DNA of 64,000 nt from Nitrosopumilus sp. (GTDB lineage: Archaea; Thermoproteota; Nitrososphaeria; Nitrososphaerales; Nitrosopumilaceae): positions 192,001-256,000 of the forward strand of contig CBDBGZ010000009.1 in assembly GCA_965205425.1 (NCBI GenBank), read 5' to 3'. The notes beneath the pieces are model-generated. The model worked only from the letters and a program-made list of their open reading frames with translations. It ran no database searches and was not told where the DNA came from. Position numbers and translations under genes: made by a program. Positions 44,493-64,000 of the stretch are shown here, piece after piece. How positions within the stretch are numbered: the first letter of the stretch is position 1; each line of letters opens with the position of its first letter.

Positions 44493-44507
44493 AATAAAAA
44501 AGAAGGG

Positions 44508-46389: not shown

Positions 46390-46460
46390 TATTGTTGTAC
46401 GGTTTAGTCTTCTCTGGATAGTTTTGGTATTTGTTGTGTGTAAATGGTTATGAGGTATTA

Positions 46461-47006
46461 CTATTCATAGTATATCACTGCAACATCGACTCTTGGCTGG
46501 TTGTATGCCCTATGATTAATTGTTACTCCAAATTCATCTACATGTAAATGGGACTCTGCAGAGTCTGGTGCTGTGATGAGTAGTGTCGTACCATCATGAG
46601 ATATTGCTACTGAACCGTAATACATGTGGCGTGGGATAGAGCTGTATGTTATTCCAGCATACTCTGAATTGCATTGCTCAAGTGAGAATTCTACTGTGGT
46701 GCCAAGCTGAACCTGTACACTGCACGAATCAGTTGTAATTGATTCTAGTGTAAATATTGAATCTTGTGGAACTGTTATTTCAAAGGATGTCTCAGCAGAG
46801 TTGCCCGAGTCATCAGTTGCAATACAATAGATGGTGGTTTGTCCTGTATTGTGTATGTTAGATGGATTGCAACTCATTGATACGTCCTCATCTACACTAT
46901 CAGTTGCAGTGGGTTTGAGATAATCTATTGGAAATACCAGATTATTTCCTGAAATGATATCCTCAGATACGCCTGCAAATACCGGAGGGGTTGTATCTAC
47001 AACAAT
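46461..47006 (-). pseudogene. 3' fragment of an HYR-domain surface protein
   Basis: IVVDTTPPVF...ATDSVD...CIATDDSGN; 5' part replaced by IS110. Confidence 0.75.
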
Positions 47007-48355: not shown

Positions 48356-48568
48356 CAATTTGTATACTAGAACAAACAATCCGAATCCAGGTAACACTAC
48401 AAATGTCATAATCGTGATAGGTATATCCATCCAACAATTACTTCTATCTGCATTTGGACTCCATGTTGGATACAAACAAGCATCAGTTGGATATTGCGCG
48501 TACAGTATGATAGATACAAAGAAAGACAAAAGTAAAAAAATAGTAGATAATATTAGAAATTTGCTCAT
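48353..48568 (-). CDS. Small two-TM protein with Cys loop
   Basis: ORF; stop created at the IS110 junction. Confidence 0.55.
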   Translation of the reverse strand: MSKFLILSTIFLLLSFFVSIILYAQYPTDACLYPTWSPNADRSNCWMDIPITIMTFVVLPGFGLFVLVYKL

Positions 48569-48593
48569 TTTAGATACAAAAGAGTGATTGGCA

Positions 48594-51500
48594 TTATTGG
48601 ATTCTCAAACTTTTTGCGATGTTAGGCCATGGACTGAATATTTTGAAAACCTCTATACAGTTACCATATGGATCTCTAACCTCGTAATGTATAGTATTGA
48701 CATCTATGACACAAGAACCGCCTGCTACAATGCCAAGCATAGTGGATGTACCATTTCCATGATTTATAATACTTTGTTTCCCAACCCCAAATAACCATCA
48801 ACACTCTTTGATGCTTTGAAATCATTTCTGATTCTATTGCATTGCAATCATTTTATTGTACAGACAAACTTTCATTTTCAATTCATGAATCATGTTTTCT
48901 CTCTTGTGCGATGTCACATGCTCTCCAAATATTCTTTTGAATACAGAGAATACTCCCTCTACAATCCATCTATCCCCATAGCTTACGCTGAGCTTCCATA
49001 GATCCAAGTTATACAATTGTGCCAAAACGGACTTTCTCCGAGGATAACAATCAGTTACAACTGATGAGTTTTTTCTTGTTTTAATTGCAGGTAGAATATC
49101 ATTATCATAATACAGATATGAAAAATTATCCTTTGTATCATATGCACCATCAGCCAAAGTTTTAGTGACATTGCCAAACTGTTTTGATTGCTCAACTAGC
49201 GATATGAAATGTTTTGAATCATGTGACTTGTCATCTGTAATATCAATCCCTGTGATCTGTTTAGATTTCACATCTACTGCCACATGAATTTTAAGAAATC
49301 CTCTTCTCTTCTGCCATTTCTGTCTCATCCACTCACCTCTGTTTGCAACCTTGATTCCAGTTGAGTCTATTGCAATGACAATGTCTTTTCCTAGTTTTGG
49401 ATTCATCTTGATGTCAAGTTTGTTGACACGTTTCCAAATGGCAGAATATGTGGGAGTCTTTGTTTTGGATTGGAGGTGTGATTTTATCAGACCTTCTGTT
49501 TGTCTGAATGGAAGATGCAAATAGAGATGACAGTATCCTAGTGCCTCCATGAAGGATTCAGGATAGACAAATCGATGACCTTCCTTTTTGTGATTCATCT
49601 CTTTTAGTTCCATACTCCATGATTCCATTGCGTCAAAGGACAACATGATTTCTCCACGTCTAACTAGTGTTTTGTTGTAATTTTTCCAGTTTCTGTTCAT
49701 GGAATAATACAGAATATTCTGATCTAAAGCTTGGGTGATGAAATTAATTGGATCAACTAGTCATGTTGGGAAACACAGCAATTTATAAAAATAGGCCCCC
49801 CACTATCTCCTTTTTGAGAAGGATATGTAGCTGATACTTGTTCAGTTAAGACATGTGTTTCTAATGACACAGTTACGTTGGTGTAAGAAATGTGACCGAT
49901 ACCATCATTATGTCTTGCAGATATTTCTACTTCTGTACCCCGACTAAAATCATCTAATCCGCCAAAATCAATCACCTGAATAGTTCCATTATTGGTTTGC
50001 AATTCATTTATTTTTGGTGTTATGTTGTCATTAGATATTTCGATCAATACTGCATCAGAATTTGTAGAACTACCCATACTTACATTTGAATCTGACAATA
50101 TTGTCGAACCTATTTCTGGTAGGATTAGGGACAAAGTATCTGTATCAAGACTTACTACTCTGTACAAGCTAGTTAGATGTATGTTATGTGATGCAGTTAA
50201 TAGTGCAGGTGTTCCAGTATAATTTAGAATCAACCCTGCTGTTCCTTGTGAACCTGTAATATGTAAAGGGTTATTTCCAAATATTCTGATGGCATCCCCT
50301 CCACGTAATTCATGTGTCTGTTCATCTTCCGGACATCCATAGTTGCCATCACCTGCCTCATCAGGGCACTGGTCTATCCCGTCATGGAACCCGTCACCGT
50401 CTGCAGGCCTGCCATCAGTTACGGTAATGGTAAATGATTCACTTGCCCTGTTTCCAGCAGCATCAGCTGCATTGCAACTCACTGTTGTTACCCCGATTTG
50501 GAAATAACCAGTACTGTGTGAACATGTAACATTTACAGTGCCATCTATACTATCAGTTGCAGTTACATCAAACTCTGCATAATACCCAAGAGAACTACGA
50601 GGAACTCCAGTAATGTCTGCGGGTATCACAATTACTGGAGGTGCTGTGTCTGCAGGTGTTATATCTTGATCATCATTTTCAACCTTTAGTATTATATTGT
50701 CAATTCCAAACTTGTTATCCTCATCTGCAATTTGTGCAGTTATTCTCATCTTAAATGAGGCAGTATCATCAAGTCTCAGCGTATGCTGTTGCCACAGACT
50801 ATCCCCGCTGGTCCATTTGAACTTTTCAGTCCATGCGCTTCCATCATAAACTTCAACTTTGAGCCAGTCATCACTTTCAAAGTCATCATCAATTAGTTTC
50901 CAAAATGTCAAAGTTATATGGTCATATCCTGATATGTCGATACCCTCACGCATTGTAATGGTACAAGGCTCACATTCATCATCATTTGTTGCAACATCAT
51001 TTGTAATAGTATGTCATGGAATCACCCCGTAATTAGAACCCAGGTCATCATCCTCAATGTCATCCCCGCTTGTATTCCAGTTTCTCATGTTGCTAAATTC
51101 CTCTAGAAATATTGTGTATGCTCCAAGGTCTGCCGGATTGATGCCATTGCCAATTAGTATATTGGCATAGGCTTTGCATACATTGATGAATCCTGGCAAT
51201 ACGTCAGGTGTGCAGTTTGCCTCATAGTATGTTTGGGCAGGTGATGAGGTTTCTGCAATAAACTCTGCATATACTATCTTAATTGGCGCACCAGTTTCCA
51301 AGGCATGCTGTATCTCATTTACATTGTATTTGATACCTGCCACTGCAGCCATCGGATGCATGCCTACGACAAGTATTTTTTCTTCCTCATCAACATATGT
51401 TATGGTAAACGGATAGTCATGCTCATAGCTTCCTGCAGAATGTCCCTCCATGATTCCCGTCAAATCTGAATGCGCCTTGTATAACTCGCTGACTATACCT

Positions 51501-51682
51501 ACAGGACCTACCGTACCATCATCAAAGAGGAAATCATCAGGTGTGGTGGTTGTAGCACTGGTGGCATTAAGATTATCATTGGCACTCTGGGCAAAAGATA
51601 TCATATCATTTTCAGCAGTCGCGATAACAATCATTGAAAATATCAAAACCGCAAACATTACAGTCTTTATTTTATTATTCAC
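48594..51682 (-). pseudogene. Large secreted serine protease with HYR domain, broken by an in-frame TGA (51014) and an IS insertion
   Basis: LTASH, SDA, GDSGGP triad; reading continues HGNGTSTMLGIVAGG...FSPW after the IS is removed. Confidence 0.8.
48770..49780 (-). mobile_element. IS5-family element (transposase 48834-49700)
   Basis: TIR (T)RCTKTGTTTCCCAAC; 8-bp TSD ATTTATAA; IDSTG, ADGAYD, RWIVEGVFS. Confidence 0.93.
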
Positions 51683-51736
51683 AATCACTTTAATACTACA
51701 CAAATTGATTCTATTTATAATTTGTATCCATGTGGT

Positions 51737-52700
51737 GGCCTTGTAGAAACCATGATAAAATAACAAAATCTAATTTTCTAATCCTGTAGGAATTGTATGC
51801 AATTAACCTGTACAACATCTCATTGTCCTGAGTTGTAACATTTCTTGATGTGACATCTCCTGACATTATCTGTTTGATCACAAAAAAGATTGTTTCAGAT
51901 TTGTTTCTCTGATGGTACAATTGTACAGGAAAGTTCCTCTTCATCTCCTTTCTGTGAATTCCGCTGGTTCTGTAAATTGGAACTGTTCCATATCGAGTTG
52001 GAATTATTGCAGCTGTGTTGATCTGTTCTGCACCGACATGGTTATTCTCATCATCAAAACCCATGTCACCTAACACAATATCAACTGGAACAATATTGTT
52101 GGTTTTGTACAACAATGGCAGAAAATCAGGATTATCATGTTGTGGTGTGTCATGACACAGCAAACAAGCTGTGTATTCATGTCAGCACAAACAACAACTT
52201 TTAGGAAATTCCTGCGTAACTGTACTCTTTTTGTATAATAGTATGATGCTGTACTGTAACTGAATCCGCTACCATCAATTCCAGCTAGAACCAGTCTGAC
52301 TTTTTTGTACAAAATGAATTCCTGCAACATTTTATGTAACAGATTTCCTTCCAGTCTTGCAGCTGCCTTTTGTAGTGTGGTGTAATGTGGAATGGTATAC
52401 AAACCAAGATATTCCTGAATTCCTACACATTCTTCTAAAAATTCTGTAAATCTTCTATAACTCTTTGATTCGTACTGTCGTATTGTCAAGAGTATGAGAT
52501 GTGTCCAAACAGAATAGATATGATTTGATTTTGGATGTAAGAACCTGGGAATTCTGCATCTGGTGATTATATTGAGTAGTGTTTTGCACATTTTGACGTA
52601 TGATGAGACCATACTGTAATCTGCAAATACAATCCTAATGGATCTAAATTAGCTAAAATGTATCACAATTGGGTTAAAATCAGATGGTTTCTACAAGGCC
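51737..52700 (-). mobile_element. Second copy of the 40636-41606 IS, frameshifted
   Basis: Same TIRs; small deletion near 52140. Confidence 0.9.
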
Positions 52701-52744
52701 GATATAACAAGTGTTCCAAAACAGATGATGAGAATGATAGACAA

Positions 52745-53035
52745 TTAATCCATCAAACAAGGTAGATAGTAATGACCATTACTGGGCAGAGTCCAACATT
52801 GATCAAACATATCCTCATATATCACGTTTTCAGTTATGAGTATACCATGTTCGTCTTCAATTCTACAATTGGTTGGTGATTGTAAGAAGTGTTCGTCACA
52901 ACGTATGACATATTTTGCATCTTTTAGAAATTGTGGAGTATCTATGGAATCATAAAATGTAATTTGTATTAATGTAATAATTAATATAAAAAATAATACA
53001 ACTAAAACTATTACAAAGTTACGTTTTGATATCAT
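52745..53035 (-). CDS. Small membrane-anchored Cys-containing protein
   Basis: N-terminal TM; four Cys. Confidence 0.6.
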   Translation of the reverse strand: MISKRNFVIVLVVLFFILIITLIQITFYDSIDTPQFLKDAKYVIRCDEHFLQSPTNCRIEDEHGILITENVIYEDMFDQCWTLPSNGHYYLPCLMD

Positions 53036-53049
53036 AAAAAAAATTGGTG

Positions 53050-53898
53050 TTAGTTAGTATAGTGCCACAAAGCTGTATATACATCCCACCAAAAAGTAGG
53101 AGAATCATATGTGTCTAGCTCAGGATTTGGCTCATTTAGCTGTTGTAAAGTATGCCATCCATTACTAATTACACTGCCATAGTGATGAGTTGTAGTATTC
53201 GAATAGATAAAATTCTCATCTCTAAATTCTCCTTCATTACAACCACCAACCCCAGTTAGGTTTTTCTTCCCATAATCATAACCTACACTATCACGATCTG
53301 CCCAAGGATGTTGGATTTGATGATATCCGCTAGCAACAAGTGAATTTTGAATACTTTGTAGATCATCAAAACCATCCTTGTTTACAGTTTTGGAAGGATT
53401 AAGATGTGATGTTTGTCCATATGTTATGCCACAAGCATTAAGTGACCAAAACCAGACACTTGTTTGACCTGAAGCACCACCTTGTGGAGTAGTTGTTGTA
53501 GCATTTGTTAGCAAACTAAACTTGCCAGATTGTGCTTTTGTCATTACATTATCTATGTCAGTTTGATCACCAGTTTTTATCACCTCGGTAATCTTATTGT
53601 TTAGTTTTGCCCATTGTTTCATGATTTTGATGTCATCACGTGATACGCTATCTTTACGCATCTGTTTTTTATCAACAACCATGTTACCTTCAGAATCATA
53701 TGTGACATAACCTTTGGAATTTGTAAATGCCTTATCTATTTCAGCTAGTGTGTATGGTTCTTTTGCAGCTTCTGCTGATTGTATTCCTGATTCACTATTA
53801 AATGGTAGAATCATCACAGCAATCAAAGTAGCAAACAATATAGTCTGTAATTTTGTTACGTTTTTCATATCCTTATCAATAACGATTTTTGATGGCAA
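53050..53898 (-). CDS. Secreted protein with helical pro-region and aromatic C-terminal domain
   Basis: Signal peptide ending SAEA. Confidence 0.75.
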   Translation of the reverse strand: MPSKIVIDKDMKNVTKLQTILFATLIAVMILPFNSESGIQSAEAAKEPYTLAEIDKAFTNSKGYVTYDSEGNMVVDKKQMRKDSVSRDDIKIMKQWAKLNNKITEVIKTGDQTDIDNVMTKAQSGKFSLLTNATTTTPQGGASGQTSVWFWSLNACGITYGQTSHLNPSKTVNKDGFDDLQSIQNSLVASGYHQIQHPWADRDSVGYDYGKKNLTGVGGCNEGEFRDENFIYSNTTTHHYGSVISNGWHTLQQLNEPNPELDTYDSPTFWWDVYTALWHYTN

Positions 53899-53994
53899 TA
53901 AAAACGGTTCTGTGTAATCTAGGTGACCTGTTTTCTTCTGTGTAGTGGGGTGACCTGAGATTTTTTATGAATTGTTAGATGGGGGTGATAACCA

Positions 53995-55331
53995 TAACCA
54001 TATGTGCCAAAATCAGCTAGGAAATTAGATGGTACTTGCATTCGTATCAAGAAAGTAAGAAATGCAAACAAACACACTACCCTTCCTGAAAAAAAATATT
54101 TGATGTTTGTAGGATTGGATGTTCACAAGAACTCTGTACAGGTGGCAGCAGTAGATGAGATTGGCAAATTATTATTTAACAAAAAGATTTCCAGTGATTT
54201 TTCTGCTATTAGCAAAATTACATCCAAAATTCCAAAGAACGCAAAATATGTTTTAGAGTCATCATCTGTCTGGTATGGCCTTTATAGACACATGACAGAC
54301 AAATTACATCTTGATGTTATACTATCTAATCCATACAACACAAAGATAATAGCATCATCACTCAAAAAGACTGATAAAATTGATGCGTACCATCTTGCAA
54401 ATTTGCTACGAGGAGGATACATTGCAGAATCATTTGTGCCAGATCACACAATTGTGCAATACAGACAGCTTGTAAGACATCGACACAAGATTGTGCGCAT
54501 CATTGTAAAGATGAAGAATTCCATACATGGTATTACACTACAGGAGGGAATCCATATCAAAGCAACACCATTTTCCTCAGAACACATACGTGCACTTGGA
54601 AAATTGGAGAGTTATAGAATAGATTCGTACCTACAAAGCATAAAATTTCACAAAAAGGAGGTTGCAAAAATAGATTCCATGATACGTCGCATGGTAAATG
54701 ATAATCCTGACGTGTGTATTTTGACATCAATACCTGGAGTTGGACCATACACTGCATTGAGCATATTCTCAGAAATTGCAGAGATTAGTAGATTTTCAAA
54801 TTCTCGCAAGTTATGTGCATATGCAGGGATTGTTCCATCGGTGAGAAATTCTGCAGATACAATACATCACGGAAGAATTACAAAGAGAGGAAGCACCATG
54901 CTAAGATGGTTGCTAGTGGAGGCAATTCATGCACATGTTAGATGCGCACCAGATAGCGACATTACAAAATTTTACAATCGCATTAAGAAAAAGAGAGGGA
55001 CCTCAAAGGCAGCAGTTGCTGCTGCATCAAAGTTATTGCGTGTCATATATTGGATGCTAAAAGAGAGGAGAGAATTTATTCAATGTCATCAATAATTTGT
55101 AAAACATTACAGTTAGGAGTTTGGCCGCGTTTTCACATTGAGGATGCATAATACCTCGAAACTATAACCGCGGTTTCACCTAATAAATGGATGAAGATGG
55201 TACTGAGGGAGATCCTCGAATAGATATGTGTCCGGTTTCATCTTTTGAAAATGAATGGGATCATCTCTAGCGGTAGCCATTCTCATGTGTTGCAAAAGAG
55301 TGCAAATGTTTTTAAAGATTTCACATAGATA
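53995..55331 (+). mobile_element. IS110-B (transposase 54004-55095, intact)
   Basis: VGLDVHK, KTDKID motifs; ends TA-ACCATATGTG and CACATAGA-TA. Confidence 0.92.
55096..55329 (+). ncRNA. Bridge/seek RNA candidate of IS110-B
   Basis: 3' ~150 nt nearly identical to IS110-A; 5' target loop differs. Confidence 0.72.
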
Positions 55332-56453
55332 TGTGAATAAGAAGACAAGGAAATCAGATAGCATAAAAAATGAATCTAACAGTTCCAAAACTTGCAGTGT
55401 ACTCTCTCCAAAAAAGATTACAAACAAACAGATTAGGAAAAATCCAAAGAAAGGCATGTTTGTGGGCATTGATCTGCACAAAAAGTTTCTTCAAGTAGCA
55501 ATAATGGATGATACAGGCAAAGTATCACAAAACGACAAAGTGGATAACACTCATGAATCCATCAAAAAGTATTTTACAAAAATACCAATTTCTGCAAATA
55601 TTGTCATGGAATCCTCATCAGTCTGGTATGACACGTATCGATTTCTGACAGATACTTTGGGATACAAAAACGTCACACTCTCAAACCCATATTTGACAAA
55701 GGCAATTGCTGCATCAAAAAAGAAAACAGACAAGATTGATGCCAAGATATTGGCAGATCTTTTACGAGGAGGATACATTGCCAAATGCTATGTTCCAGAC
55801 AAAAAGATTGTACAACAAAGACAGCTTGTAAGATATAGGAAAAAACTAATCCAATGGAGAACATCTGTCAAGAATTCAGTTCATGGAATATTGTTACAAG
55901 AAGGAATCAAGATTCCAGGAGTTACATTCACTGAAACATACAACAGAAGACTCAAGGCACTAGGAGATTACAGAATAGACGGATTCTTGCAACAAATCAG
56001 CCACACCTTAATTTACAGATTGCAGAGATTAATTCCAAAGTGTATGCTGCTGTAAAAGTTAATCCTGATGCAATTTTAATAAACTCGATTCCAGGAATTG
56101 GGCATTATTCTTCGCTTGTCATTGCATCAGAGATTGCAGATATTGAAAGATTCAATGATTCTCACAAACTGTGTGCATATGCAGGAGTTGTACCATCAGT
56201 TAGAAACTCTGCAGATACAATACACCATGGCAGAATAACAAAACGAGGAAGCATGACATTGAGATGGGTTCTAACCGAGTGTATACACACTCATGCAATA
56301 CATGCCAAAGATAGTGACATTACAAAATTTTACAATCGCATTAAAAAGAAAAGAGGATCATCCAAAGCTGCAGTAGCTGGTGCATCAAAGATCCTGAGGG
56401 TGATTTATTGGATGTTAAAGGAGAGGAGAGAATTTGTACAAAATTATAGTTAG

Positions 56454-56655
56454 GACTGCAAGTCGCGTTGTAATTATTGAGGGACAAGGCCTCGTTTGAT
56501 AACTGCGAACAATCCTAACTAGGATGAAGATAGCATTGAGAGAATAGTCTCGTATGGATACATGTCTGCCATCTTTTGATTGAAACCATTCTCTAGCGAA
56601 AGCTATGCCCTGATGTATGGAAAGAGAGGAAATGTATAAAAACAATTCACATGGA
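56454..56655 (+). ncRNA. Bridge/seek RNA candidate of IS110-C
   Basis: Same architecture; guides TGTAATT and TGATA match its flanks; ATGGATA matches its own right end. Confidence 0.72.
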
Positions 56656-57019
56656 TAAATTACAAAAAGAGATTACAGAGCTAAAGAAGAAATTATCCTA
56701 CTATGAGAACCCAAACTCTCCACCATCATCTGATTCTCTCCACTGGAAAAAACAAAAGAAAGAACGAAAATCAACTCATCCAAACAAACCAGGACAAAAG
56801 CCAGGACATGATGGTAAAACTCACAGCTTCAAACCCACAAAAACAATTCATCATGATTCAAAGAAATGCTCAAACTGTGGCAGTAAAAAATAACTCAAAC
56901 TACACAACAAACTCGAATCATTGCAGAAATCCCAAAACCGCAACCAGTTACCATAACAAAACATGTTATTCCTTCTTACTTTTGCAACAATTGTGGAAAT
57001 ACAACAGTTACTGATTGCC

Positions 57020-58046
57020 GGGTGTGTCCTAAAAGTAGACAAATATAACAATTTTATTCAATTCTGTAACATATTGATCGCATGGAATCACAACAACTAT
57101 GCAAAACAAATCAAAAAGAGACTGGCAAGTATATGGCACATATCGCAAGGATGAGGAGATTCTATTCTTGGAAAAAGTAAAGAAGACAGTTTGGAGTATG
57201 GATACACCATGGGAACCAAAGACAGGCGGACGTCCTGCATTTCCAACAAAAGCAAAGATAATGTGTGCAATGCTAAAGGTAAAGTTTGGATTGGATTATC
57301 GTTCCATGGAGTCCCACTTGAGATCAAGGCCGGATCTGTTGGAAATAATGGAGCTCAAAAAAGCACCAAGCAAGACTGTCATTAATGACAGTCTAAAAAG
57401 AATTCCAATGCCTTATTTGAAAAAGGTAAACGCAAAACTCACAGAACCAATCAAAAAAAAGACATAGCTCCTGACAGTTCAGGATTTGGTACCAAAAGAT
57501 GTGAGGCTTGGTTTGACATCAAGACAAACACGCACAAATCCAAGAAATTATATCTAAAACTGCACATCCTAATTGCAATACAGTCCATGGCAATAGTATC
57601 TTTTGACATTACTAAAGGAACTCGTGGTGATGCACCAATTCTCAAAAAATTAATCAAAGACATTCCAAAGGGAATTGGTGATTTTTGTGCAGATCCTGCA
57701 TATTTGTCACGAGACATTTGCAATATGGTAGCTACTCTGCAAAAGATACCATACATCAAACCAAAGAAGAACACAGTTAGAAATCCCAAAGGCTCTGCAT
57801 CATGGAAAAAAAATGATAACATTATTCCAGGACAATCAAGATGAATTTGACAGACATTATCACAAGAGGTCACTTGTTGAATCAGTATTTGCAGTACTCA
57901 AAAGAATCTTTGGAAATAGCTTGTCATCAAAAAACAAGTTGGTTCAAAGAAAAGAGTTGGCGTTGCGTGTAATTTGTTACAACATACGAGTTGTTAATTT
58001 GATGGGGGTTACAAAACATGTTAGAGGATAGTTTTAGGACACACCC
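57020..58046 (+). mobile_element. Second copy of the IS5-like element at 21672-22697 (extra frameshift)
   Basis: Same TIRs; extra A near 57810; no TSD. Confidence 0.92.
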
Positions 58047-58076
58047 TCTTTACGCAGAAGGGATATTAACGGTTCT

Positions 58077-58526
58077 TTGTTCGACATACCAATTAAAGAC
58101 CCTCACGTAGGACTTGTTGAAATTCTAAATAATCTACCAGTTAACGGAATGGAATATTTACCGAATCGAGTTATGGGATTCTTTGAAGTGTTGTTCCCCG
58201 ATTATGTTCCTGAAAATCTAAGAAATTTTTTGATAACTATAAAACAAGTAGAAAACAATCCATCATTATTACAATTCTCAAAACATGAAGCAGTAGATAC
58301 TAGTGCAAAATCCATAAAAATAGGACTGGAATCCAAAGGATCAAATGATGAATGGTTTGAAATTCTTAATTCAATAGGATGGATAAACACCGCTGGAAAA
58401 ACAACTCAAAACATCAATGAATTTACCAGTGGTCTAGTATTGCCAAAAGGACAATCACAACTAAGGGCAGTATTACAACTATTGGGGAATCTAAAAATAT
58501 CTGCTGATGTCGTATTGTCGAACTGA
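58077..58526 (+). CDS. Hypothetical protein, probably 5'-truncated by the IS
   Basis: ORF abutting the IS end. Confidence 0.5.
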   Translation: MFDIPIKDPHVGLVEILNNLPVNGMEYLPNRVMGFFEVLFPDYVPENLRNFLITIKQVENNPSLLQFSKHEAVDTSAKSIKIGLESKGSNDEWFEILNSIGWINTAGKTTQNINEFTSGLVLPKGQSQLRAVLQLLGNLKISADVVLSN

Positions 58527-58563
58527 TTTTATCCTCATATATCAGTTATAATCATACAATACT

Positions 58564-58701
58564 ATGACTATAGGATATTGTGTAAAGTGCAAATCAAAGA
58601 GAACTATGAAAGGTGCAACCAAAACAAAGATGAAGAACGGTAGACCTGCAACTAAAGGCAAGTGTACAAAATGCAATACTGGTATGTTTAGAATTGGTTA
58701 A
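58564..58701 (+). CDS. DUF5679-like small Zn-binding DNA-binding protein (45 aa)
   Basis: MTIGYCVKCKSKRTM...MKNGRPATKGKCTKCNTGMFRIG; not in the ORF track. Confidence 0.8.
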   Translation: MTIGYCVKCKSKRTMKGATKTKMKNGRPATKGKCTKCNTGMFRIG

Positions 58702-58707
58702 GATAAA

Positions 58708-58986
58708 ATGAAAAAACTAAACAAAGAAAATATATCAAAAATAAAAAATGTTTCAGGATATTACAAAATTTTCAACAAAAATAGAAAATTGGAATATGTA
58801 GGGGTATCTAAAGTATTACGTCATAGGTTACAATCATACTATCAAAAAGACGATTTCACAGTAAATAAAACTAAAAGGTCTCTTAGACCACACGCAAAAA
58901 ATTTCACTGTAGCATATATGGGCATTAATCAGGCTAGAAGACTTGAAAAAGAAATGAAAAAAAACACGCCACATAATAAATTATGA
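58708..58986 (+). CDS. Stand-alone GIY-YIG-like nuclease domain
   Basis: SGYYKIF...YVGVSKVLRHRLQSY...LEKE...PHN. Confidence 0.75.
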   Translation: MKKLNKENISKIKNVSGYYKIFNKNRKLEYVGVSKVLRHRLQSYYQKDDFTVNKTKRSLRPHAKNFTVAYMGINQARRLEKEMKKNTPHNKL

Positions 58987-58995
58987 GATGAAAAT

Positions 58996-59187
58996 TTGTC
59001 TGAATTCAAATCGTATCGAAAAAAACCAATAATCATAAGAGCAAAACAAATGAATGAACCATTTGAGGTCAAAACAATGGAAGGAACGATGAAAGGAAAA
59101 ACAGGTGATTATTTAGTAGTTGGAATCAAAAATGAAAAATATCCGATTGATAAAGATATTTTTGAAAAAACATATAATCCAATTTAA
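58996..59187 (+). CDS. Small phage-type protein (PGDYG-like)
   Basis: YRKKPIIIRA...TMEG...GDYLVVG...YPIDKDIFEKTY. Confidence 0.75.
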   Translation: MSEFKSYRKKPIIIRAKQMNEPFEVKTMEGTMKGKTGDYLVVGIKNEKYPIDKDIFEKTYNPI

Positions 59188-59523
59188 TTTTTCTAAAATT
59201 TAGGGATTAACTGAACAAATTAGGATGTTTTTATATCACATTAGTGGACTGGTAACAGATGGAAAATTCCACCAAGATCAGAATTAAAGATAATCCTTTG
59301 TTGAAATTGTTAAGTCGAATTGGTAAGTTGAGAATAGGTCGAGTTGGATTGACTGAAATTTTAATTATTCTTACTTTGATTTTCATTATAGGAAAACTAT
59401 TGTAAATTCTATATACCCAGCAAACGCATGGCGTTGTAATCCATTTTTCCAAGCCTCTTAGGATTTTCCCTTTTGAGCCTCTATATTTTGAAAATAATCT
59501 AAAAGTGTAAAGATAACCTACCT

Positions 59524-59809
59524 TTTACAAAAATAATTTCCAATATCGCTCTAGCAACACAGCATTCTCTTCACAATTCTTGGATTCTCTGTTTTTGTTA
59601 TGCAATTGTAATATACTGCAAGTTGATACACCAACACGCAAACCAATACAAATGATTTCACGTTGTCAAATCCTTTCACATGTACAGTTCTAATGTTGAA
59701 CGTATCTTTGAATATTTCAAATAAAGGTTCAATTGAAACTTTTCTTTGTGAGTACAACTCTTGACCAATTACAGAATTGTAAAACTCTACGAGTGTTATT
59801 CTCTCTGGT
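59524..59809 (-). mobile_element. Transposase 3' remnant of the 60632-61775 family
   Basis: QELYSQRKVSIEPLFE...KRMLCC. Confidence 0.8.
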
Positions 59810-59854
59810 GGCAAAAAAATACGCAAAAAGTATAAGTGTTGATGGCCTTTTGTA

Positions 59855-60457
59855 TTGGAATCTTTTTTATTAAAATCTATATTACTGTATAATGAATTCA
59901 AAATATTGCCAATCGAATCACTCATGTTTTATTTTACTGGAGAAAATGCATTGACAAATCTAGCAGCAGTTGTAACTATTTTATCTCTTGGCATATCTTC
60001 AATTTTATATTTTGTTAAGAGATGGCATGACACTTCAACTGAAAAAAGAAGGGCTTCTAAAAATCTCTATACGGAACTCGATGATGCTTTGGACGGATTA
60101 GATGAAAAGATATACACCAATGATCTTAGAAAGATAAAACTTAACGATAAAGATTATGCGTATTTTATGAATCGCAGACTGAATCATGATTTTTATGATA
60201 GTTTAATTTTTTCAGGAAAAATAAACTTCCTAAAATCAGAACTACAACAGTCAGTACAGGATATATTTCAAATTATAAAGGATCATAATTTTTATCTTAA
60301 AAAAATCAGAGACATTGAAGATAATGCAAGAGTTGGAGATGATATATCTTCCATAACAAAACGATACTATGAACAGTTAGATAAAGATGAGAAATCTCTA
60401 CTAGAACGTATTCCAAAAATGAAAGAAAAACTCAAGAAAGAATTTAAGATAAAATAA
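59855..60457 (+). CDS. Membrane-anchored hypothetical protein
   Basis: TM plus coiled coil; true start probably ATG 59924. Confidence 0.6.
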   Translation: MESFLLKSILLYNEFKILPIESLMFYFTGENALTNLAAVVTILSLGISSILYFVKRWHDTSTEKRRASKNLYTELDDALDGLDEKIYTNDLRKIKLNDKDYAYFMNRRLNHDFYDSLIFSGKINFLKSELQQSVQDIFQIIKDHNFYLKKIRDIEDNARVGDDISSITKRYYEQLDKDEKSLLERIPKMKEKLKKEFKIK

Positions 60458-60631
60458 TTGATTATTTCTTCTTTGGTCTGGAATTTGCAGGCATTTCAGC
60501 ACTTGTAGTGCTAGATACTCCTTCTCTGCTACCTATGAACTCTTTACCATGTTCTTTGGTTCTAAGATGTTTTGGACTTTCATCAGTCATGATGTGATTA
60601 CTGTCTTGAATTATTTAAACTCTAACTAATA

Positions 60632-61775
60632 TGAGACATGGGCATAACTAATTCTAATTTTTGAGTCAATTCTCAAATTATTCAAATAGAAAAAGCTAAG
60701 GATCTTATCATGTTTTGTTCATTGTAATGTCAAAACAAATGAAAATCCCTAACAAGATTCTATCGGAATCATTTCTTATTGGTATGTTACATTTGGTGGG
60801 AATGTTGTCTTTGTATGAAGAGATACTGAAAACTTGGTAGACCGTACGTATACTCTACAATTCTAATGGTACAGCTGTCCATCATAAAATCTTGGATGAG
60901 AATTCCTAGTAACAATACATTACATTATTTCCTTTCAATCAAACCTTCCAATGACAAACTGCTCAAGGTTTGCAAATTAACTCAAATTCCAGACAGAAGA
61001 ACTATTGACAGACGATTTCAATTTCTACCCATTAGTGACATGATTAGTACCATGGGCAACAAATTCATCTCAGAGGGATTGGTGGAAAATGTTTCAGCAT
61101 CAGGGGATAGTTCAATGCTAAAAGCAGATGGTCCAGTATGGCACAAATCAGACATAAAGAACAATCGTCTACCAATCCCAGGAATTGATACTGATGCAAA
61201 ATGGGGTTTTTCAAAATCAAAGGGTTGGATATTTGGATACAAACTGCACATGAGTTGCAGTACTGGAAAACTGATAGTTCCATTGTCTGCTGATGTTTCA
61301 ACTGCAAATGTTTCTGATGGTAAAATGTATGAAACGTTAGTCAAACCACTTGCAGGACTAGTTGAAAATGTTCTATGTGATGTGCCATATGATGATAAAT
61401 CATTATATCAGTTTAGTGATGGGAGACATTTGAGATTGATTTGTCCTATCAAAATATATCCATCAACACCGCCAGAGCGAATCAAACTTGCAGATTTTTA
61501 TAATTCTGTACAAGGTCAAGAGTTGTACTCACAAAGAAAAGTCTCAATTGAACCTTTATTTGAAATATTCAAAGATACGTTCAACATTAGAACTGTACAT
61601 GTGAAAGGATTTGACAACGTGAAATCATTTGTATTGGTTTGTGTGTTGGTGTATCAACTTGTAGTATATTACAACTGTATAATTGGAGCAGAAAATCCAA
61701 GAACTGTAAAGAGAATGCTTTGCTGTTAGGAAATGACTGAGAGTTATTTTTGTAAATAATTATGCCCAAGTCTCA
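60632..61775 (+). mobile_element. IS4/IS5-superfamily DDE element, transposase degraded at the 5' end
   Basis: TIR TGAGACWTGGGCATAA; DSS, GYKLH and RKVSIE motifs. Confidence 0.85.
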
Positions 61776-62136
61776 GATATTTTGGTACAAGTTCCAAGTC
61801 ATTATGAGAATGAATATTTTTTTCAAAGTAATTCTCAGATGGACCCATTACAACATAGTGAGATAACACATTAAATGCCCCGTTTGATTTTATTGGTTCT
61901 GCCCTGAACCCTTGGCAGGTATCTGAACCCTTGAATTTGAAAACAAAATGGCTTGCATCTCCAGGGTACAATGAACCATCAGGATTGTTTCGGAATTGTC
62001 CTCCATATGAAATAGGAAATAGTTTTCCGTCAATACTAACACTGCATGGTTTTTCTAAACTCTGATGAGTTGCATATGCGGTAGTAACAACAATCGGAAT
62101 GAATAATAGTAAAAATAACAAGAGAATAATTTTCAC
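61776..62136 (-). pseudogene. 5' part of a secreted protein truncated by the IS
   Basis: Signal peptide; ORF runs into the TIR. Confidence 0.6.
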
Positions 62137-62187: not shown

Positions 62188-62349
62188 TCAAGATATTGAA
62201 ACTTTGCCTGATTTTTCTATGGTAAATGTTACAGTATCTGGAATGTTAAGGAATTGATCTAAAGGTTTTGGTAATGTCATCTTGACATCTTTTCCAACTC
62301 GGTTAACACTTACTGTAAATTTTGTTGCACCTTCTTTCCATTTTGGCAT
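62188..62349 (-). CDS. AbrB/MazE-like swapped-hairpin DNA-binding protein (53 aa)
   Basis: MPKWKEGATKFTVSVNRVGKDVKMTLPKPLDQFLNIPDTVTFTIEKSGKVSIS; upstream TATAAATA; not in the ORF track. Confidence 0.75.
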   Translation of the reverse strand: MPKWKEGATKFTVSVNRVGKDVKMTLPKPLDQFLNIPDTVTFTIEKSGKVSIS

Positions 62350-62375
62350 ACATAACAGTACAAATACTACTATTT

Positions 62376-62417
62376 ATATTCTACCTAATACATAACGTTA
62401 ACATATTCTACCTAATA
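62376..62417. promoter_or_regulatory. Direct repeat ATATTCTACCTAATA x2 in a divergent promoter (putative operator)
   Basis: Exact 15-mers at 62376 and 62403, between the AbrB-like gene and the tRNA. Confidence 0.65.
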
Positions 62418-62429
62418 ATTAATATTTGT

Positions 62430-62500
62430 GGGCCAGTAATTCGAAGGTCGAATCTCTAGTCGTCAACTAGAAGGCTCGGGTTCGATTCCCGACTGGTCCA
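62430..62500 (+). tRNA. Atypical tRNA: anticodon GTC (Asp) on an Ala-type acceptor (G3:U70, A73), with C33
   Basis: GGGCCAG/CTGGTCC-A; D ATTC/GAAT; AC TCTAG-TCGTCAA-CTAGA; T TCGGG-TTCGATT-CCCGA. Confidence 0.85.
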
Positions 62501-62535
62501 CGTAATGTTTATTTAGAAATGATATGTAGAATAAT

Positions 62536-62580
62536 TAGTTGACGACTAGATGTTAGTTCGCCTTTGAACTAGCCTTTTTT
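62536..62580 (+). ncRNA. Sequence antisense to the 5' half of the upstream tRNA, ending in a hairpin and T6
   Basis: TAGTTGACGACTAGA is the exact reverse complement of 62455-62469; degenerate complementarity continues through the D arm and acceptor. Confidence 0.55.
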
Positions 62581-62655
62581 CTATTTTCTGAAAATTTTAG
62601 AGGGGTTTAACATCTAGGCATAATTTCAAAAAATCATTACACCATTGAGTTTTTG

Positions 62656-62897
62656 TGCGTAAGTAAATTTTGTGACAATATCGTATTGTGCCATCGGGCT
62701 GAAATGAGGTTTGATTGTTCCATTTACGAACAAAAGCTAAACCCGCCCTGAATTTTGGGAATTGTAAAAAATTCACATCATGCCTGATGTGAATACAATA
62801 ATTGAGGGGGTGAATATTTACGCATAAGTTTTTTCCAATTTTACATATTTGATAGGGGGTTTAGCTTTTAGGCACAAATTTGGTCATTAACAAATTT
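62656..62897 (+). ncRNA. Candidate large multi-stem structured RNA with possible pseudoknot
   Basis: Stems 62686-92/62871-77, 62732-44/62857-69, 62771-80/62785-94; two small hairpins; 62656-65/62815-24 pairing; G-U pairs favour + strand. Confidence 0.55.
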
Positions 62898-62931
62898 TAT
62901 TAATTCATCATGTAATAATAAATTAGAAACA

Positions 62932-63019
62932 CGTCAGGAATGGGATTCGAACCCATGAAACCGATGTACTCAGCAAAGAGATTTTCAATCTCTCGGTATT
63001 ACCACTAACCGATCCTGAC
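62932..63019 (-). tRNA. Atypical class II tRNA: anticodon GAA (Phe) with long variable arm and G73 (Ser-type body)
   Basis: GTCAGGA/TCCTGAC-G; D GGT/ACC; AC AGAGA-TTGAAAA-TCTCT; 20-nt variable region with GCTGA/TCGGT stem; T ATGGG-TTCGAAT-CCCAT; upstream TTAAATA. Confidence 0.85.
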
Positions 63020-63267
63020 GAGTTTTCTTCTAAAAATTCCTATTTAAGAATTGGTTCTGATGTATTCAAGTGAATAAAATCTTAGAATATTCAACCTTTA
63101 AAAAATAGAAATTTGTATTATTATTACGGTTCCGTTGGTGTAATGCTGACTATGAGACTTGGAAACAAGAGCTCAGGGATCGACTTTATCTTTCAACATT
63201 TCAATATATGAAAAAATAACTAATATTGTAAAATTTCATAAAACCTCTATTTCTCATTATTCTCACA

Positions 63268-63483
63268 ATGGTCAGCCGTGACTTTGTAATTTTGGATTAT
63301 TCACACCAAAGAAAGTACAGAAATCATACATGTGCAAAATGCGGAGACTTATTTAGTATAGGTGATGCTGTCCATACTCAAAGAACAAAACGTTCTAAGA
63401 GAATATGTCACAAACAATGTTGGGAGTCAATGTATACCCCAGATCATAAGTCTTTTCAATTTATTGTTCTTGCAAAATACTGA
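63268..63483 (+). CDS. Small LIM-like Zn-finger protein, 3' end overlapping an IS
   Basis: CAKC...CHKQC. Confidence 0.55.
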   Translation: MVSRDFVILDYSHQRKYRNHTCAKCGDLFSIGDAVHTQRTKRSKRICHKQCWESMYTPDHKSFQFIVLAKY

Positions 63484-64000
63484 TACATATTCAAATTAAA
63501 TTTGTGGGTTCTAAAATATTCCATAACTGTATGTCTCATCTCATGAATAGATTCATAAAATTCTGATTCAACATTAACATGTTTGCACTGTCTCCAAATC
63601 TCTTCAATCATACTCAAATGTGGAGAACCTCTTGGAAGATATGCCAGTTTGACATCTTTGTTTTTACGCAGATATTCTTTTACATCATTAGCTTTGTGTT
63701 GCGGTGCTCTATCGACGATAACAAATATTTTCCCGAATTTTTTACGAGCTGCCTCCAAATAATCCATAAATGCAATTGAGTTAAATTTTTCATACGATCT
63801 AAAAAAACTTTGATTATCATCAGTCATCATTCCATAAACCAAAAATCTTTGGTGCGATCCTCTCCAACGTACAATCATTCGTTGGTGTACATCTGTCCAG
63901 TATTTTTTACCAAGACGTACATCGTCTACAAATACAGACTCGTCTTGGATGAATACTGTAAAACCTTTCTTTTTTGCCTTTTCTATGCGTGAAATGATGC
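63456..64000 (-). mobile_element. IS630-family transposase (partial)
   Basis: IVDRAPQH, LPRGSPHLSMIEEIW. Confidence 0.85.

What the first reader, a model, noticed from the sequence alone, without database searches (positions are those of the whole stretch)
62188..63190. Compact RNA module: regulator, two identity-mismatched tRNAs, an anti-tRNA sequence and a structured RNA
Seen: within ~1 kb that is empty in the ORF track lie an AbrB-like gene, a duplicated operator, two well-folded tRNAs, an antisense copy of one of them and a large structured RNA, among phage-type genes and IS scars. In both tRNAs the anticodon (Asp, Phe) disagrees with the body (Ala, Ser). Established: AlaRS and SerRS are among the few synthetases that ignore the anticodon, so such tRNAs act as missense suppressors. 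Inference: a mobile-element system using deliberate mistranslation or decoy tRNAs, for example an RNA toxin-antitoxin/addiction module, abortive infection, or a counter to anticodon nucleases. Two independent mismatches of the same logic are hard to explain by drift.
Basis: partly seen in the sequence, partly recalled or inferred. Interest (0 to 1): 0.92.

Follow-up and report, generated by a model that had tools for sequence, protein, structure and literature searches.

The report
Mismatched tRNAs with cognate antisense RNAs
An ammonia-oxidising archaeon carries transfer-RNA genes that bear the marks for accepting alanine or serine yet read codons of other amino acids, and each alanine-type copy sits beside a small RNA gene complementary to its own anticodon arm, which looks like a safety catch on a deliberately error-making tRNA.

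Summary
Both tRNA genes are real (Rfam tRNA 52 and 57 bits, cut-off 29). Neither is a one-off mutant.

**Gene A (62430-62501)** belongs to a family with the alanine marks G1-C72, G2-C71, G3.U70 and A73 in 17 of 17 copies. The anticodons seen are only Asp, Phe or Leu.

- In 17 of 18 intact copies found without using the antisense as a criterion, a 12-18 nt stretch complementary to that copy's own anticodon arm lies at a fixed place.
- That stretch is followed by a hairpin and a T-run.
- It co-varies with the arm. 0 of 9 canonical tRNA-Ala genes have one.

**Gene B (62931-63020)** belongs to a long-variable-arm family with G73. GAA is kept in 30 of 34 copies despite stem covariation. It has no antisense partner.

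**Other parts of the finding**
- The small protein with paired operator repeats recurs at 4 loci, but an AbrB fold is not verified.
- The "large structured RNA" is not supported.
- The five parts are not one conserved module.

**Best reading (about 0.4):** an RNA-only, toxin-antitoxin-like pair, in which a mis-decoding Ala-tRNA is held in check by its anti-anticodon sRNA.

No expression or charging data exist. I found no description in print.

The parts
61744..62136 (-). 130-aa ORF with a hydrophobic N-terminus, downstream of the small regulator gene. Its function is unknown.
   Evidence: ORF. A 62%-identical homologue lies next to the regulator homologue beside an A-type tRNA in G036. No Pfam, PADLOC or PHROG hit.
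62188..62349 (-). 53-aa protein (MPKWK... family), a putative DNA-binding regulator transcribed divergently from tRNA A.
   Evidence: Homologues sit divergently next to an A-type tRNA at 4 loci: the window, G167, G036 and G000 contig 8. Only 8 relatives were found in the large protein database. AF2 pLDDT is 76. No family could be assigned.
62376..62422 (.). Two direct repeats (ATATTCTACCTAATA core) spaced 27 bp, between the regulator gene and tRNA A. Putative operators.
   Evidence: All 4 loci with the regulator have two repeats of 12-22 nt spaced 27-29 bp. The repeat sequence is shared by the 75%-identical pair (window, G167) and differs in the two divergent loci.
62430..62501 (+). tRNA A: cloverleaf with the alanine identity elements (G1-C72, G2-C71, G3.U70, A73) and anticodon loop UCGUCAA (GUC, Asp; C33).
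   Evidence: Family invariants hold in 17 of 17 copies. The D-arm and anticodon-arm pairs co-vary (helices 2 and 3).
62508..62515 (+). TTTATTTA (TTTAATTA in paralogues), an A/T box about 24 nt upstream of the antisense seed. Possible TATA box of the sRNA, or a T-rich end of the tRNA gene.
   Evidence: These columns are invariant in the 7-sequence alignment. The promoter role is inferred. The same motif follows a canonical tRNA-Ala in another genus.
62536..62550 (+). Seed: 15 nt perfectly antisense to the 5' strand of the anticodon stem, the whole loop and 3 nt beyond, of tRNA A.
   Evidence: -24.6 kcal/mol, uninterrupted.
62552..62580 (+). Hairpin GTTAGTTC/GAACTAGC plus T6: a terminator-like 3' end of the antisense RNA (or of the tRNA-trailer transcript).
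   Evidence: 6 of 8 hairpin pairs change on both sides across the family (helix 5).
62597..62885 (.). Repeat-bearing spacer. A G-run motif (GGGGGTTTARC..AGGC) lies at 62600 (+), about 62745 (-), about 62803 (+) and 62854 (+). An inner 9-bp hairpin lies at about 62774-62795.
   Evidence: It is a paralogue of a +/-/+ motif unit found once in many genomes of the genus. No covariation. Nature unknown.
62931..63020 (-). tRNA B: class II (long variable arm), G73, U2-A71, loop UUGAAAA (GAA, Phe). The leader AAACTC can pair with the trailer (G)TGTTT.
   Evidence: Family covariation shows 15 of 26 pairs changed on both sides, with 0 of 500 shuffles as high.

Best explanation
The core of the finding is a two-gene RNA module. 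One gene encodes a tRNA that carries the complete alanine identity set but reads Asp codons; in paralogues it reads Phe or Leu codons. Next to it lies a small RNA made of a free 5' seed, a hairpin and a U-run. The seed is complementary to that tRNA's own anticodon arm.

Proposed working:
- The single AlaRS of the cell charges the tRNA with alanine regardless of the anticodon.
- A free tRNA of this kind would put Ala at Asp, Phe or Leu codons and would be harmful.
- The cognate sRNA base-pairs over 12-18 nt with the anticodon loop and the 5' stem strand, so the tRNA cannot decode and may be degraded.
- If the sRNA is lost or stops being made, the tRNA is released.
- The pair would thus work like a type I / type VIII toxin-antitoxin (addiction or abortive-infection) module whose toxin is a mis-decoding tRNA.
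- In 4 loci, including this one, a small divergent regulator with paired operators adds transcriptional control.

tRNA B (class II, G73, GAA) is a second, independent family of hybrid-identity tRNA. It is probably serine-accepting, has no antisense partner, and lies here by co-location in an IS-rich island.

Shown: the RNA gene architecture, its conservation, and the co-variation of arm and seed. Inferred: transcription of both RNAs, alanylation, decoding, toxicity, and the relative stability of the two RNAs.
For: (a) Identity elements are under selection.
- G1-C72, G2-C71, G3.U70 and A73 occur in 17 of 17 copies, while pairs 5:68 to 7:66 change with compensation.
- That AlaRS reads G3:U70 and ignores the anticodon, and that 52 of 57 tRNA-Ala anticodon variants mistranslate in yeast, is from the abstract of PMC10543346.

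(b) Non-Ala anticodons are kept. Only Asp (GUC, AUC), Phe (GAA) and Leu (AAG, CAG) occur.

(c) Cognate antisense.
- In this genome, 7 of 7 A-type tRNAs have an uninterrupted duplex (-19.5 to -24.9 kcal/mol) at a fixed distance, against 0 of 3 B and 0 of 7 canonical tRNAs.
- In 5 other genomes, using detection that ignores the antisense, 10 of 11 intact copies have it, against 0 of 9 canonical tRNA-Ala.
- Cognate energies average -22.6 kcal/mol (n = 14) and non-cognate -9.7 (n = 182, of which 2 are at or below -18).

(d) RNA-level pairing on the sense strand. 19 of 210 pairs are G.U. The opposite strands pair more weakly in 10 of 14, equally in 1 and more strongly in 3.

(e) The partner looks like an independent sRNA.
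- In subfamily A1 it lies 31-35 nt downstream on the same strand.
- In subfamily A2 it lies 32-34 nt upstream on the opposite strand, so it cannot be a trailer there.
- Both fold as free seed + hairpin + U-run.

(f) Toxin-antitoxin-like population features.
- There are several mutually specific copies per genome.
- Orphan sRNA genes or copies with a broken tRNA half are frequent: 8 of 15 A2 sites, plus the A1 remnants L012, L030, L039 and L062.
- Only 1 of 18 intact tRNAs lacks its sRNA.

(g) Patchy distribution in IS-rich regions. A1 or A2 occurs in 13 of 151 genomes of the genus. A1 was not found in 145 genomes of other genera of the order.

(h) No dedicated synthetase: one AlaRS and one SerRS N-domain in the genome.

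(i) C33 in this copy and in 3 of 15 A1 loops recalls the odd position 33 of known natural mistranslating tRNAs (passage in PMC11415595).
Against: - There are no data on transcription, processing, charging or toxicity.
- B has the same kind of mismatch but no antisense, so a mismatched tRNA can evidently be carried without one.
- One intact A-type tRNA (L145) also lacks it.
- AspRS and PheRS read the anticodon, so A copies could be partly charged correctly. GAA copies even have A73.
- The A/T box after the tRNA is also found after a canonical tRNA-Ala in another genus. In A1 the antisense could therefore be merely a 3' trailer. The whole tRNA-plus-trailer transcript folds into a rod (-53.4 kcal/mol, z = -5.0).
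- The count of broken tRNAs beside intact sRNAs is biased, because most of those sites were found through the sRNA hairpin.
- No PADLOC defence model matches the neighbours.
- A check of seeds against all tRNAs of the genome put the cognate first in only 5 of 7. The other two were within 1.6 kcal/mol. It is a noisy test.
Confidence: 0.4

Rival explanations
1. Gated, non-lethal mistranslation or a 'pro-tRNA'. The antisense stretch acts mainly in cis as a 3' trailer (A1) that locks the anticodon arm in a rod-shaped precursor. Release by 3' processing, under control of the small regulator, gives a dosed burst of Ala-for-Asp/Phe/Leu substitution as a stress or adaptation device, not an addiction module.
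For: The tRNA-plus-trailer transcript folds as one long rod, -53.4 kcal/mol, z = -5.0. The regulator and operators sit at 4 loci. Regulated mistranslation by natural dual-identity tRNAs is known in bacteria (passages in PMC11415595).
Against: In subfamily A2 the antisense lies on the opposite strand upstream, with its own hairpin and T-run, so it cannot be a trailer. Orphan sRNA genes persist. Several mutually specific copies per genome are not needed for a simple stress switch.
Confidence: 0.2
2. The tRNAs are not mistranslators. The anticodon-reading AspRS, PheRS or LeuRS charge them correctly, or they are poor substrates for everything. They are spare tRNAs of mobile elements, and the antisense RNA merely tunes their level.
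For: Anticodons are strictly conserved within three amino-acid families. A-type GAA copies have A73, which I recall as the tRNA-Phe discriminator. The canonical tRNA-Phe of this genome also has A73.
Against: A G.U wobble at 3:70 kept in 17 of 17 copies, while neighbouring pairs change, is hard to explain without AlaRS or another reader of G3:U70. A-type GUC copies have A73 and A38, where the canonical tRNA-Asp of this genome has G73 and C38. Canonical, GC-rich tRNA-Asp, -Phe and -Leu genes already exist.
Confidence: 0.15
3. A non-ribosomal role. The tRNA-like RNA and its antisense form a copy-number/incompatibility or immunity pair of a mobile element. Alternatively they are a decoy with a protective cap against anticodon nucleases. 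The tRNA shape would then serve only stability, processing or recognition.
For: The modules lie in IS-dense, variable regions. In 3 loci the A1 unit is followed by the same repeat-bearing region. The seeds are specific to their own copy, as in antisense incompatibility systems.
Against: No replication or nuclease gene is consistently linked. The intact T-loop, the D-loop GG, the 7-nt anticodon loop and the AlaRS identity set point to a chargeable, L-shaped tRNA. Two exact-pattern scans of viral contigs found nothing.
Confidence: 0.15
4. Decaying tRNA pseudogenes or tRNA-derived repeats spread by IS activity, with an accidental inverted partial duplication. No function.
For: The surroundings are IS-rich. 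Several degenerate copies exist.
Against: Compensatory changes occur in every helix. Arm and seed co-vary across 24 loci in two different gene arrangements. Identity elements and anticodons are invariant. The families persist across species of the genus.
Confidence: 0.05

Closest known systems
tRNAProX (tRNAProA/N/T) of Streptomyces and Kitasatospora (passages in PMC11415595; PMC10404621, abstract start only)
   Same: These are natural tRNA gene families that join the identity elements of one amino acid to anticodons of others. They have an unusual base at position 33, a patchy distribution, and cause mistranslation when expressed.
   Different: They are bacterial and come with a dedicated ProRSx paralogue. 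Here there is one AlaRS and one SerRS. No antisense partner is described for them. The families here use synthetases that ignore the anticodon altogether.
Nematode nev-tRNAs (PMC3333845 and PMC4300185, abstract starts in the search listing)
   Same: Like family B, they are class II tRNAs with a long variable arm and anticodons that belong neither to Leu nor to Ser. They are conserved within a clade and misacylated in vitro.
   Different: They are eukaryotic, carry Gly/Ile anticodons and accept leucine. B has G73 (a Ser-type discriminator) and GAA or GAU.
Type I toxin-antitoxin pairs with trans-encoded antisense RNA (tisB/istR-1, zorO/orzO, ibs/sib). Recalled; no call.
   Same: The genes are adjacent, tandem or divergent. 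The complementarity is short (about 12-20 nt). The sRNA is a seed plus a terminator hairpin. A genome holds several copies, each sRNA specific for its own partner.
   Different: The toxin there is an mRNA for a small hydrophobic peptide. Here the target is a tRNA, and no conserved peptide ORF exists: the only overlapping ORF, 62322-62459, has no counterpart.
CreTA, type VIII toxin-antitoxin of haloarchaea (PMC8501985, abstract start in the search listing)
   Same: It is archaeal, both toxin and antitoxin are RNAs, and the toxic action goes through the tRNA/translation system.
   Different: CreT sequesters a rare tRNA. CreA is a CRISPR-like guide that needs Cascade and represses transcription. 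Here the proposed toxin is itself a tRNA, and the antitoxin would pair with it directly.
Engineered tRNA-Ala anticodon variants in yeast (PMC10543346, abstract)
   Same: They have the same design as family A, with G3:U70 plus a non-Ala anticodon. They were shown to insert alanine and often to slow growth.
   Different: They are laboratory constructs in a eukaryote. The natural family here has a co-evolving antisense partner.

Membership tests
tRNA (Rfam RF00005) | Cloverleaf scoring above the family's gathering score | tested here: met
   52.4 and 56.9 bits against 29. ARAGORN calls both.
tRNA-Ala (identity for AlaRS) | G3.U70 wobble pair with A73 and G1-C72/G2-C71 | tested here: met
   17 of 17 A-type copies, the window's included.
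tRNA-Ala (decoding) | Anticodon NGC | tested here: not met
   0 of 18 intact A-type copies carry it. The window's copy is GUC.
tRNA-Ala (function) | Charged with alanine by AlaRS | not testable with these tools
   Needs an aminoacylation assay. A single AlaRS gene is present.
tRNA-Asp | GUC anticodon together with the discriminator and loop of the genome's own tRNA-Asp (G73, C38) | tested here: not met
   The GUC is present, but A73 and A38 stand where the canonical copy at contig 9, 482364-482441, has G73 and C38.
tRNA-Ser (identity for SerRS) | Long variable arm plus G73 | tested here: met
   The variable arm is present. G73 occurs in 31 of 31 aligned B copies. Canonical Ser of this genome has G73 and canonical Leu has A73.
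tRNA-Ser (body and decoding) | Ser anticodon and Ser-like arms | tested here: not met
   GGA occurs in 1 of 34, GAA in 30 and GAU in 3. The T-arm and D-loop resemble the genome's tRNA-Leu more than its tRNA-Ser. Global identity is not discriminating.
Type I toxin-antitoxin | Adjacent antisense sRNA with short, copy-specific complementarity to the toxin transcript | tested here: met
Type I toxin-antitoxin | Toxin is a small hydrophobic peptide | tested here: not met
   No conserved ORF. The 45-aa ORF 62322-62459 has no match in the other loci.
Any toxin-antitoxin system | The toxin alone inhibits growth, the antitoxin rescues, and the antitoxin is less stable | not testable with these tools
   Needs expression experiments.
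CreTA (type VIII) | Antitoxin flanked by degenerate CRISPR repeats and dependent on Cascade | not tested
   I did not search for CRISPR repeats or cas genes. The sRNA here has a plain hairpin and T-run.
AbrB/SpoVT-type regulator | Match to the family profile, or a swapped-hairpin fold | tested here: inconclusive
   No Pfam match at E up to 10 for 10 family members. No PDB sequence match. Foldseek gives no hit at E up to 0.001. VIA best Z is 2.4 to a plant B3 domain. The monomer model of a probable dimer has pLDDT 76.
tRNAProX-like system | Dedicated synthetase paralogue next to or with the tRNA | tested here: not met
   One AlaRS and one SerRS N-domain in the genome. No synthetase lies near the loci.
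tRNA-Sec / allo-tRNA (8/5, 9/4, 8/4 forms) | Acceptor stem of 8-9 bp | tested here: inconclusive
   In B the base before G1 pairs with G73 (C-G in 9 and U-G in 2 of 11), and the leader and trailer pair further. Whether this is part of the mature RNA cannot be told. The D-stem and anticodon are not Sec-like.

The most novel reading that the evidence does not exclude
An RNA-only toxin-antitoxin system in archaea in which the toxin is a purpose-built mis-decoding tRNA: alanine identity with an Asp, Phe or Leu anticodon. The antitoxin is a small RNA that cages the anticodon arm by direct base pairing. Each copy has evolved its own lock-and-key sequence. Proteome-wide mistranslation would then be used as an addiction or abortive-infection weapon. 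The serine-type GAA family would be a second, differently controlled arm of the same strategy.
Probability: 0.3. Interest if true: 0.92.

Novelty: new variant of a known kind. Interest (0 to 1): 0.82.

Why it matters
Natural tRNAs that break the link between anticodon and amino acid are rare. The few known cases have changed how we think about the fidelity of the genetic code.

Here two such families occur in archaea, in the accessory genome of ammonia oxidisers. One of them comes with a co-evolving RNA that masks the anticodon, an arrangement I could not find described.

If the tRNA is charged with alanine and decodes, this would be:
- the first case of mistranslation used as a controlled weapon or switch;
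- a new class of RNA-RNA toxin-antitoxin pair;
- a natural, sequence-programmable way to switch a tRNA off.

Even if the function is different, the arm-seed covariation defines a new regulatory interaction between an sRNA and a tRNA.

Tried and rejected
- **Expression.** The look-up of sequencing runs listed 5 holders of the stretch, none on record as RNA: no RNA holder listed.
- **Viral link.** Two exact-pattern scans of viral contigs, one for the B 3' end and one for the A1 hairpin, found 0 matches.
- **Genome-contig scans.** The first pattern was too strict and found 0. The second found 2 records titled Nitrosopumilus sp. and 1 probably chance Clostridia hit.
- **Isotype by global identity.** Not discriminating. 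tRNAscan-SE isotype models were not available.
- **YrlA / Y-RNA-like idea.** Rfam gives 20.7 bits against a cut-off of 69, E = 0.44. Rejected.
- **C/D-box guide idea for the trailer.** No conserved C/D boxes appear in the alignment. Rejected by eye.
- **Bulge-helix-bulge splicing idea.** The arm-seed duplex is uninterrupted. Rejected.
- **Peptide toxin idea.** The 45-aa hydrophobic ORF 62322-62459 is not conserved.
- **Replication-origin idea for the G-run motif region.**
  - The conserved counterpart is not next to cdc6 in this genome: contig 4 versus contig 9.
  - In two relatives the two lie far apart.
  - The review PMC4010727 (passages) gave no motif to compare.
  - The question is left open.
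- **RNA structure of that region.** There is no covariation, with a covariation term of +0.78.
- **53-aa protein.** Pfam, PADLOC, PHROGs, PDB sequences, Foldseek and VIA gave no assignment.
- **The count of structure pairs on alignment A3.** The acceptor and T helices were out of register in the stored structure. I recounted them from the raw sequences.
- **Seeds against all tRNAs of the genome.** The cognate came first in 5 of 7. The test is noisy because whole GC-rich tRNAs and part of the hairpin were included.
- **Conserved protein partner of B.** A rhodanese gene follows B in 3 genomes and an MT-A70 methylase lies near 2 copies. Nothing is general.
- **Earlier findings of this scan.** Three look-ups returned nothing.
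- **Literature.** Searches found no paper describing such archaeal tRNAs or a tRNA/anti-anticodon sRNA pair. Subscription journals are not covered.
Full report
**What is at the coordinates**

The window holds exactly two tRNA genes, and both lie in the finding.
- Gene A is at 62430-62501 (+), anticodon GTC.
- Gene B is at 62931-63020 (-), anticodon GAA.
- Rfam's tRNA model scores them 52.4 and 56.9 bits against a gathering score of 29. Nothing else in the 64 kb reaches any Rfam threshold.

The stretch lies between two multi-copy insertion sequences, 61001-61785 and about 63430-64000. It is at the end of an IS-dense region with three IS110 and several DDE transposases.

The only archaeal records returned by a public-genome scan for the gene-A hairpin are titled Nitrosopumilus sp..

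**Gene A is one member of a family**

ARAGORN on the whole 2.2-Mb genome lists 61 tRNA genes. Besides GC-rich canonical tRNA-Asp, -Phe, -Ala and -Ser genes, it finds seven AT-richer genes of about 72 nt. Their acceptor stem is that of tRNA-Ala, but their anticodons are GUC (3 copies), GAA (2) and AAG (2).

Seventeen copies from this and related genomes could be parsed automatically:
- G1-C72, G2-C71, G3.U70 and A73 are present in 17 of 17.
- Pair 5:68 shows five pair types and pair 6:67 shows four.
- A wobble pair kept while its neighbours change with compensation is the signature of selection on G3.U70.

G3.U70 is the determinant AlaRS uses irrespective of the anticodon (abstract of PMC10543346). 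The genome has one AlaRS gene. Global identity to canonical tRNAs does not assign an isotype, at 0.64-0.73 to many. So "alanine body" means the identity elements, not the whole sequence.

**The antisense partner**

In the window, 62536-62550 is a perfect 15-nt reverse complement of the anticodon arm: the 5' stem strand, all seven loop bases and three more. A hairpin (62552-62573) and T6 follow.

The same architecture holds in the paralogues, although the arm sequences differ:
- In this genome, all 4 copies of subfamily A1 have an uninterrupted 12-15-bp duplex. The partner lies 33-35 nt (54 nt in one copy) downstream on the same strand.
- All 3 copies of subfamily A2 have a 16-bp duplex with a stretch 34 nt upstream on the opposite strand.
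- None of the 3 B copies and none of 7 canonical tRNAs has anything comparable.
- Across 14 A1 units from 7 genomes, cognate energies run from -15.8 to -28.0 kcal/mol (mean -22.6). The 182 non-cognate combinations average -9.7, and 2 reach -18.

To avoid circularity I searched five other genomes with a pattern for the T-arm and the 3' acceptor only. Of the 34 matches, 30 were given loci, and I examined those 30:
- 10 of 11 intact non-Ala-anticodon copies have the contiguous cognate stretch (-22.9 or better) at the canonical place.
- One (L145) does not.
- 0 of 9 canonical tRNA-Ala genes do.

Together with this genome, that makes 17 of 18.

Two further points bear on the nature of the pairing:
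- 19 of 210 duplex pairs are G.U.
- The opposite strands pair more weakly in 10 of 14 cases, equally in 1 and more strongly in 3. This favours pairing between RNAs of the tRNA's sense.

**Is the partner a trailer or a separate sRNA?**

From seed to T-run, both subfamilies fold as a free 5' seed, a hairpin and a U-run.

In A2 this RNA can only come from the opposite strand, divergently from the tRNA.
- Its hairpin pattern occurs at 16 sites in 10 of 151 genomes of the genus. It occurs at 0 sites when the pattern is read backwards.
- I examined 15 sites. Seven have a divergent GGGC... tRNA whose arm matches the seed. Eight have none or a broken one.

In A1 an invariant A/T box (TTTAATTA; TTTATTTA at 62508-62515 here) lies about 24 nt before the seed, where an archaeal TATA box would be expected. 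That reading is inferred. The same box follows a canonical tRNA-Ala in another genus. The whole tRNA-plus-trailer also folds into a rod (-53.4 kcal/mol, z = -5.0). A cis role in A1 therefore cannot be excluded.

**Distribution**
- The covariance model of the A1 unit gives full-length hits of 73 bits or more in 8 of 151 genomes of the genus. One further genuine unit scores 65.7 bits.
- With the A2 pattern, 13 of 151 genomes carry an A-type module.
- In a sample of 145 genomes from other genera of the order, the two best hits were ordinary tRNA-Ala(GGC/UGC).
- Anticodons seen in A are only Asp (GUC, AUC), Phe (GAA) and Leu (AAG, CAG).
- Degenerate copies exist in which the tRNA half is truncated or broken while the sRNA hairpin remains: L012, L030, L039, L062 and L157. 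Most of these were found through the hairpin, so the asymmetry is biased.

**Gene B**

B is a class II tRNA. In the Rfam register it has G1-C72, U2-A71, U8, a long variable arm and G73.

The genome has three copies. All carry GAA, and the anticodon and variable-arm stems co-vary.
- A model of the family finds 30 hits of 70 bits or more in 19 of 151 genomes of the genus.
- In 31 aligned copies the loops are YUGAAAA (26), CCGAAAA (1), CUGAUAA (3, Ile) and CUGGAAA (1, the Ser anticodon). G73 is present in 31 of 31.
- Three metagenome copies are also GAA.
- On the first 11 copies, 15 of 26 pairs change on both sides, and 0 of 500 shuffles reach the observed covariation.

In this genome canonical tRNA-Ser has G73 and tRNA-Leu has A73. 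The discriminator and the long arm therefore predict serine. I recall, from no call, that A73-to-G alone converts a human tRNA-Leu into a serine acceptor. B's T-arm and D-loop nevertheless resemble the tRNA-Leu genes more, and a sister genus has a B-like gene with A73 and GAA.

B has no antisense partner. Its leader (AAACTC) pairs with its trailer (GGGTTT) in nearly all copies.

A and B co-occur in 9 of the 13 A-carrying genomes. Kin are not independent. The two are adjacent only in this window.

**The protein and the operators**
- Homologues of the 53-aa ORF lie divergently next to an A1 tRNA at four loci in three genomes.
- In each, the intergenic space has two direct repeats of 12-22 nt spaced 27-29 bp. 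The repeat sequence goes with the protein's similarity group.
- This supports a DNA-binding regulator of the tRNA gene.
- No family could be assigned, so "AbrB-like" stays a resemblance only.
- The other A1 loci lack this gene.

**The "structured RNA"**

62597-62885 holds four copies of a G-run motif in +/-/+/+ order and an inner hairpin. A shorter +/-/+ unit occurs once in many genomes of the genus. There the motifs are conserved in sequence without compensatory change, and Rfam finds nothing. It looks like a set of protein-binding repeats rather than an RNA. What it is remains open.

**Reading**

What is shown is a co-evolving pair: a chargeable-looking tRNA with alanine identity and a non-alanine anticodon, and an adjacent small RNA gene antisense to its anticodon arm. 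It is multiplied into mutually specific copies and confined to variable, IS-rich parts of some genomes.

The most economical mechanism is that the sRNA keeps a harmful, mis-decoding tRNA inactive. That is a toxin-antitoxin-like or tightly gated mistranslation device.

The steps from gene to transcript, to alanylation, to decoding and to harm are all inferred. B shows that a mismatched tRNA can be kept without such a partner.

I found no description of either family, or of a tRNA/anti-anticodon sRNA pair, in four literature searches. The closest known systems are tRNAProX, the nev-tRNAs, type I toxin-antitoxin pairs and CreTA.

Noticed in passing
window 62597-62885; L016 1333-1518 and the like in L011, L013-L015, L018-L020, L026; own genome contig 4, 117561-117657: A G-run motif (GGGGGTTTARC...AGGC) in +/-/+ order forms a ~170-nt intergenic unit. 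The unit is present once in many genomes of the genus, and the window has a longer paralogue right after the gene-A module. It has no Rfam hit, shows no covariation and is not next to cdc6. In two relatives it lies roughly 44-47% of the chromosome away from cdc6.
   Followed up: partly
window 44000-61800: An IS graveyard with three IS110-type transposase genes (one split into two ORFs), several IS4/IS5-type DDE genes, an IS630-type gene at the window's end, a GIY-YIG ORF and a DUF5131 ORF.
   Followed up: partly
window 59855-60457 (+): A 200-aa ORF with two predicted N-terminal hydrophobic stretches. It gives a weak match to a SLATT-type PADLOC model (E = 0.0086) and has a 36%-identical paralogue on contig 4.
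   Followed up: no
window 63268-63483 (+): A 71-aa Cys-rich ORF. Its last 16 codons belong to the multi-copy IS630-type element, so the IS insertion has probably replaced its original end. Paralogues 31-33% identical exist elsewhere in the genome.
   Followed up: no
L036 and L062 (G153): A2-type tRNAs (one has a broken acceptor stem) keep their cognate divergent sRNA upstream. They are also followed by an A1-type sRNA gene whose seed matches a GUC-type arm, not theirs. This is a chimeric arrangement or an orphan antisense gene.
   Followed up: partly
L145 (G036) and L152 (G014): Two exceptions. L145 is an intact G3.U70 tRNA with GAA and higher GC (0.61), with no nearby antisense. L152 is a relative with A3-U70 instead of G3.U70, whose 13-bp complement lies 146 nt downstream on the opposite strand.
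   Followed up: no
L107 (G175, another genus of the family): A B-like class II tRNA with loop UUGAAAA but discriminator A73 (Leu-type). The GAA class II design therefore exists with either discriminator.
   Followed up: no
L096 (G172): Three B-type genes in tandem within about 550 nt. Two are intact with GAA. One has a broken 5' acceptor strand and GAU.
   Followed up: no
L068, L074, L104: A 98-aa rhodanese-domain gene follows B in the same orientation in three genomes, at about 90% identity. This is probably a shared chromosomal site rather than a functional link.
   Followed up: partly
own genome, whole: Several canonical tRNA genes occur twice (Tyr-GTA with intron, Leu-CAA with intron, Ser-TGA, Thr-TGT, Glu-CTC). 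The assembly is rated 5.2% contaminated. Some duplicates may come from a second strain in the assembly.
   Followed up: no
A-type anticodons AAG and AUC: An A at position 34 is unusual for archaeal tRNAs as far as I recall (no call). It adds to the non-canonical look of the family.
   Followed up: no
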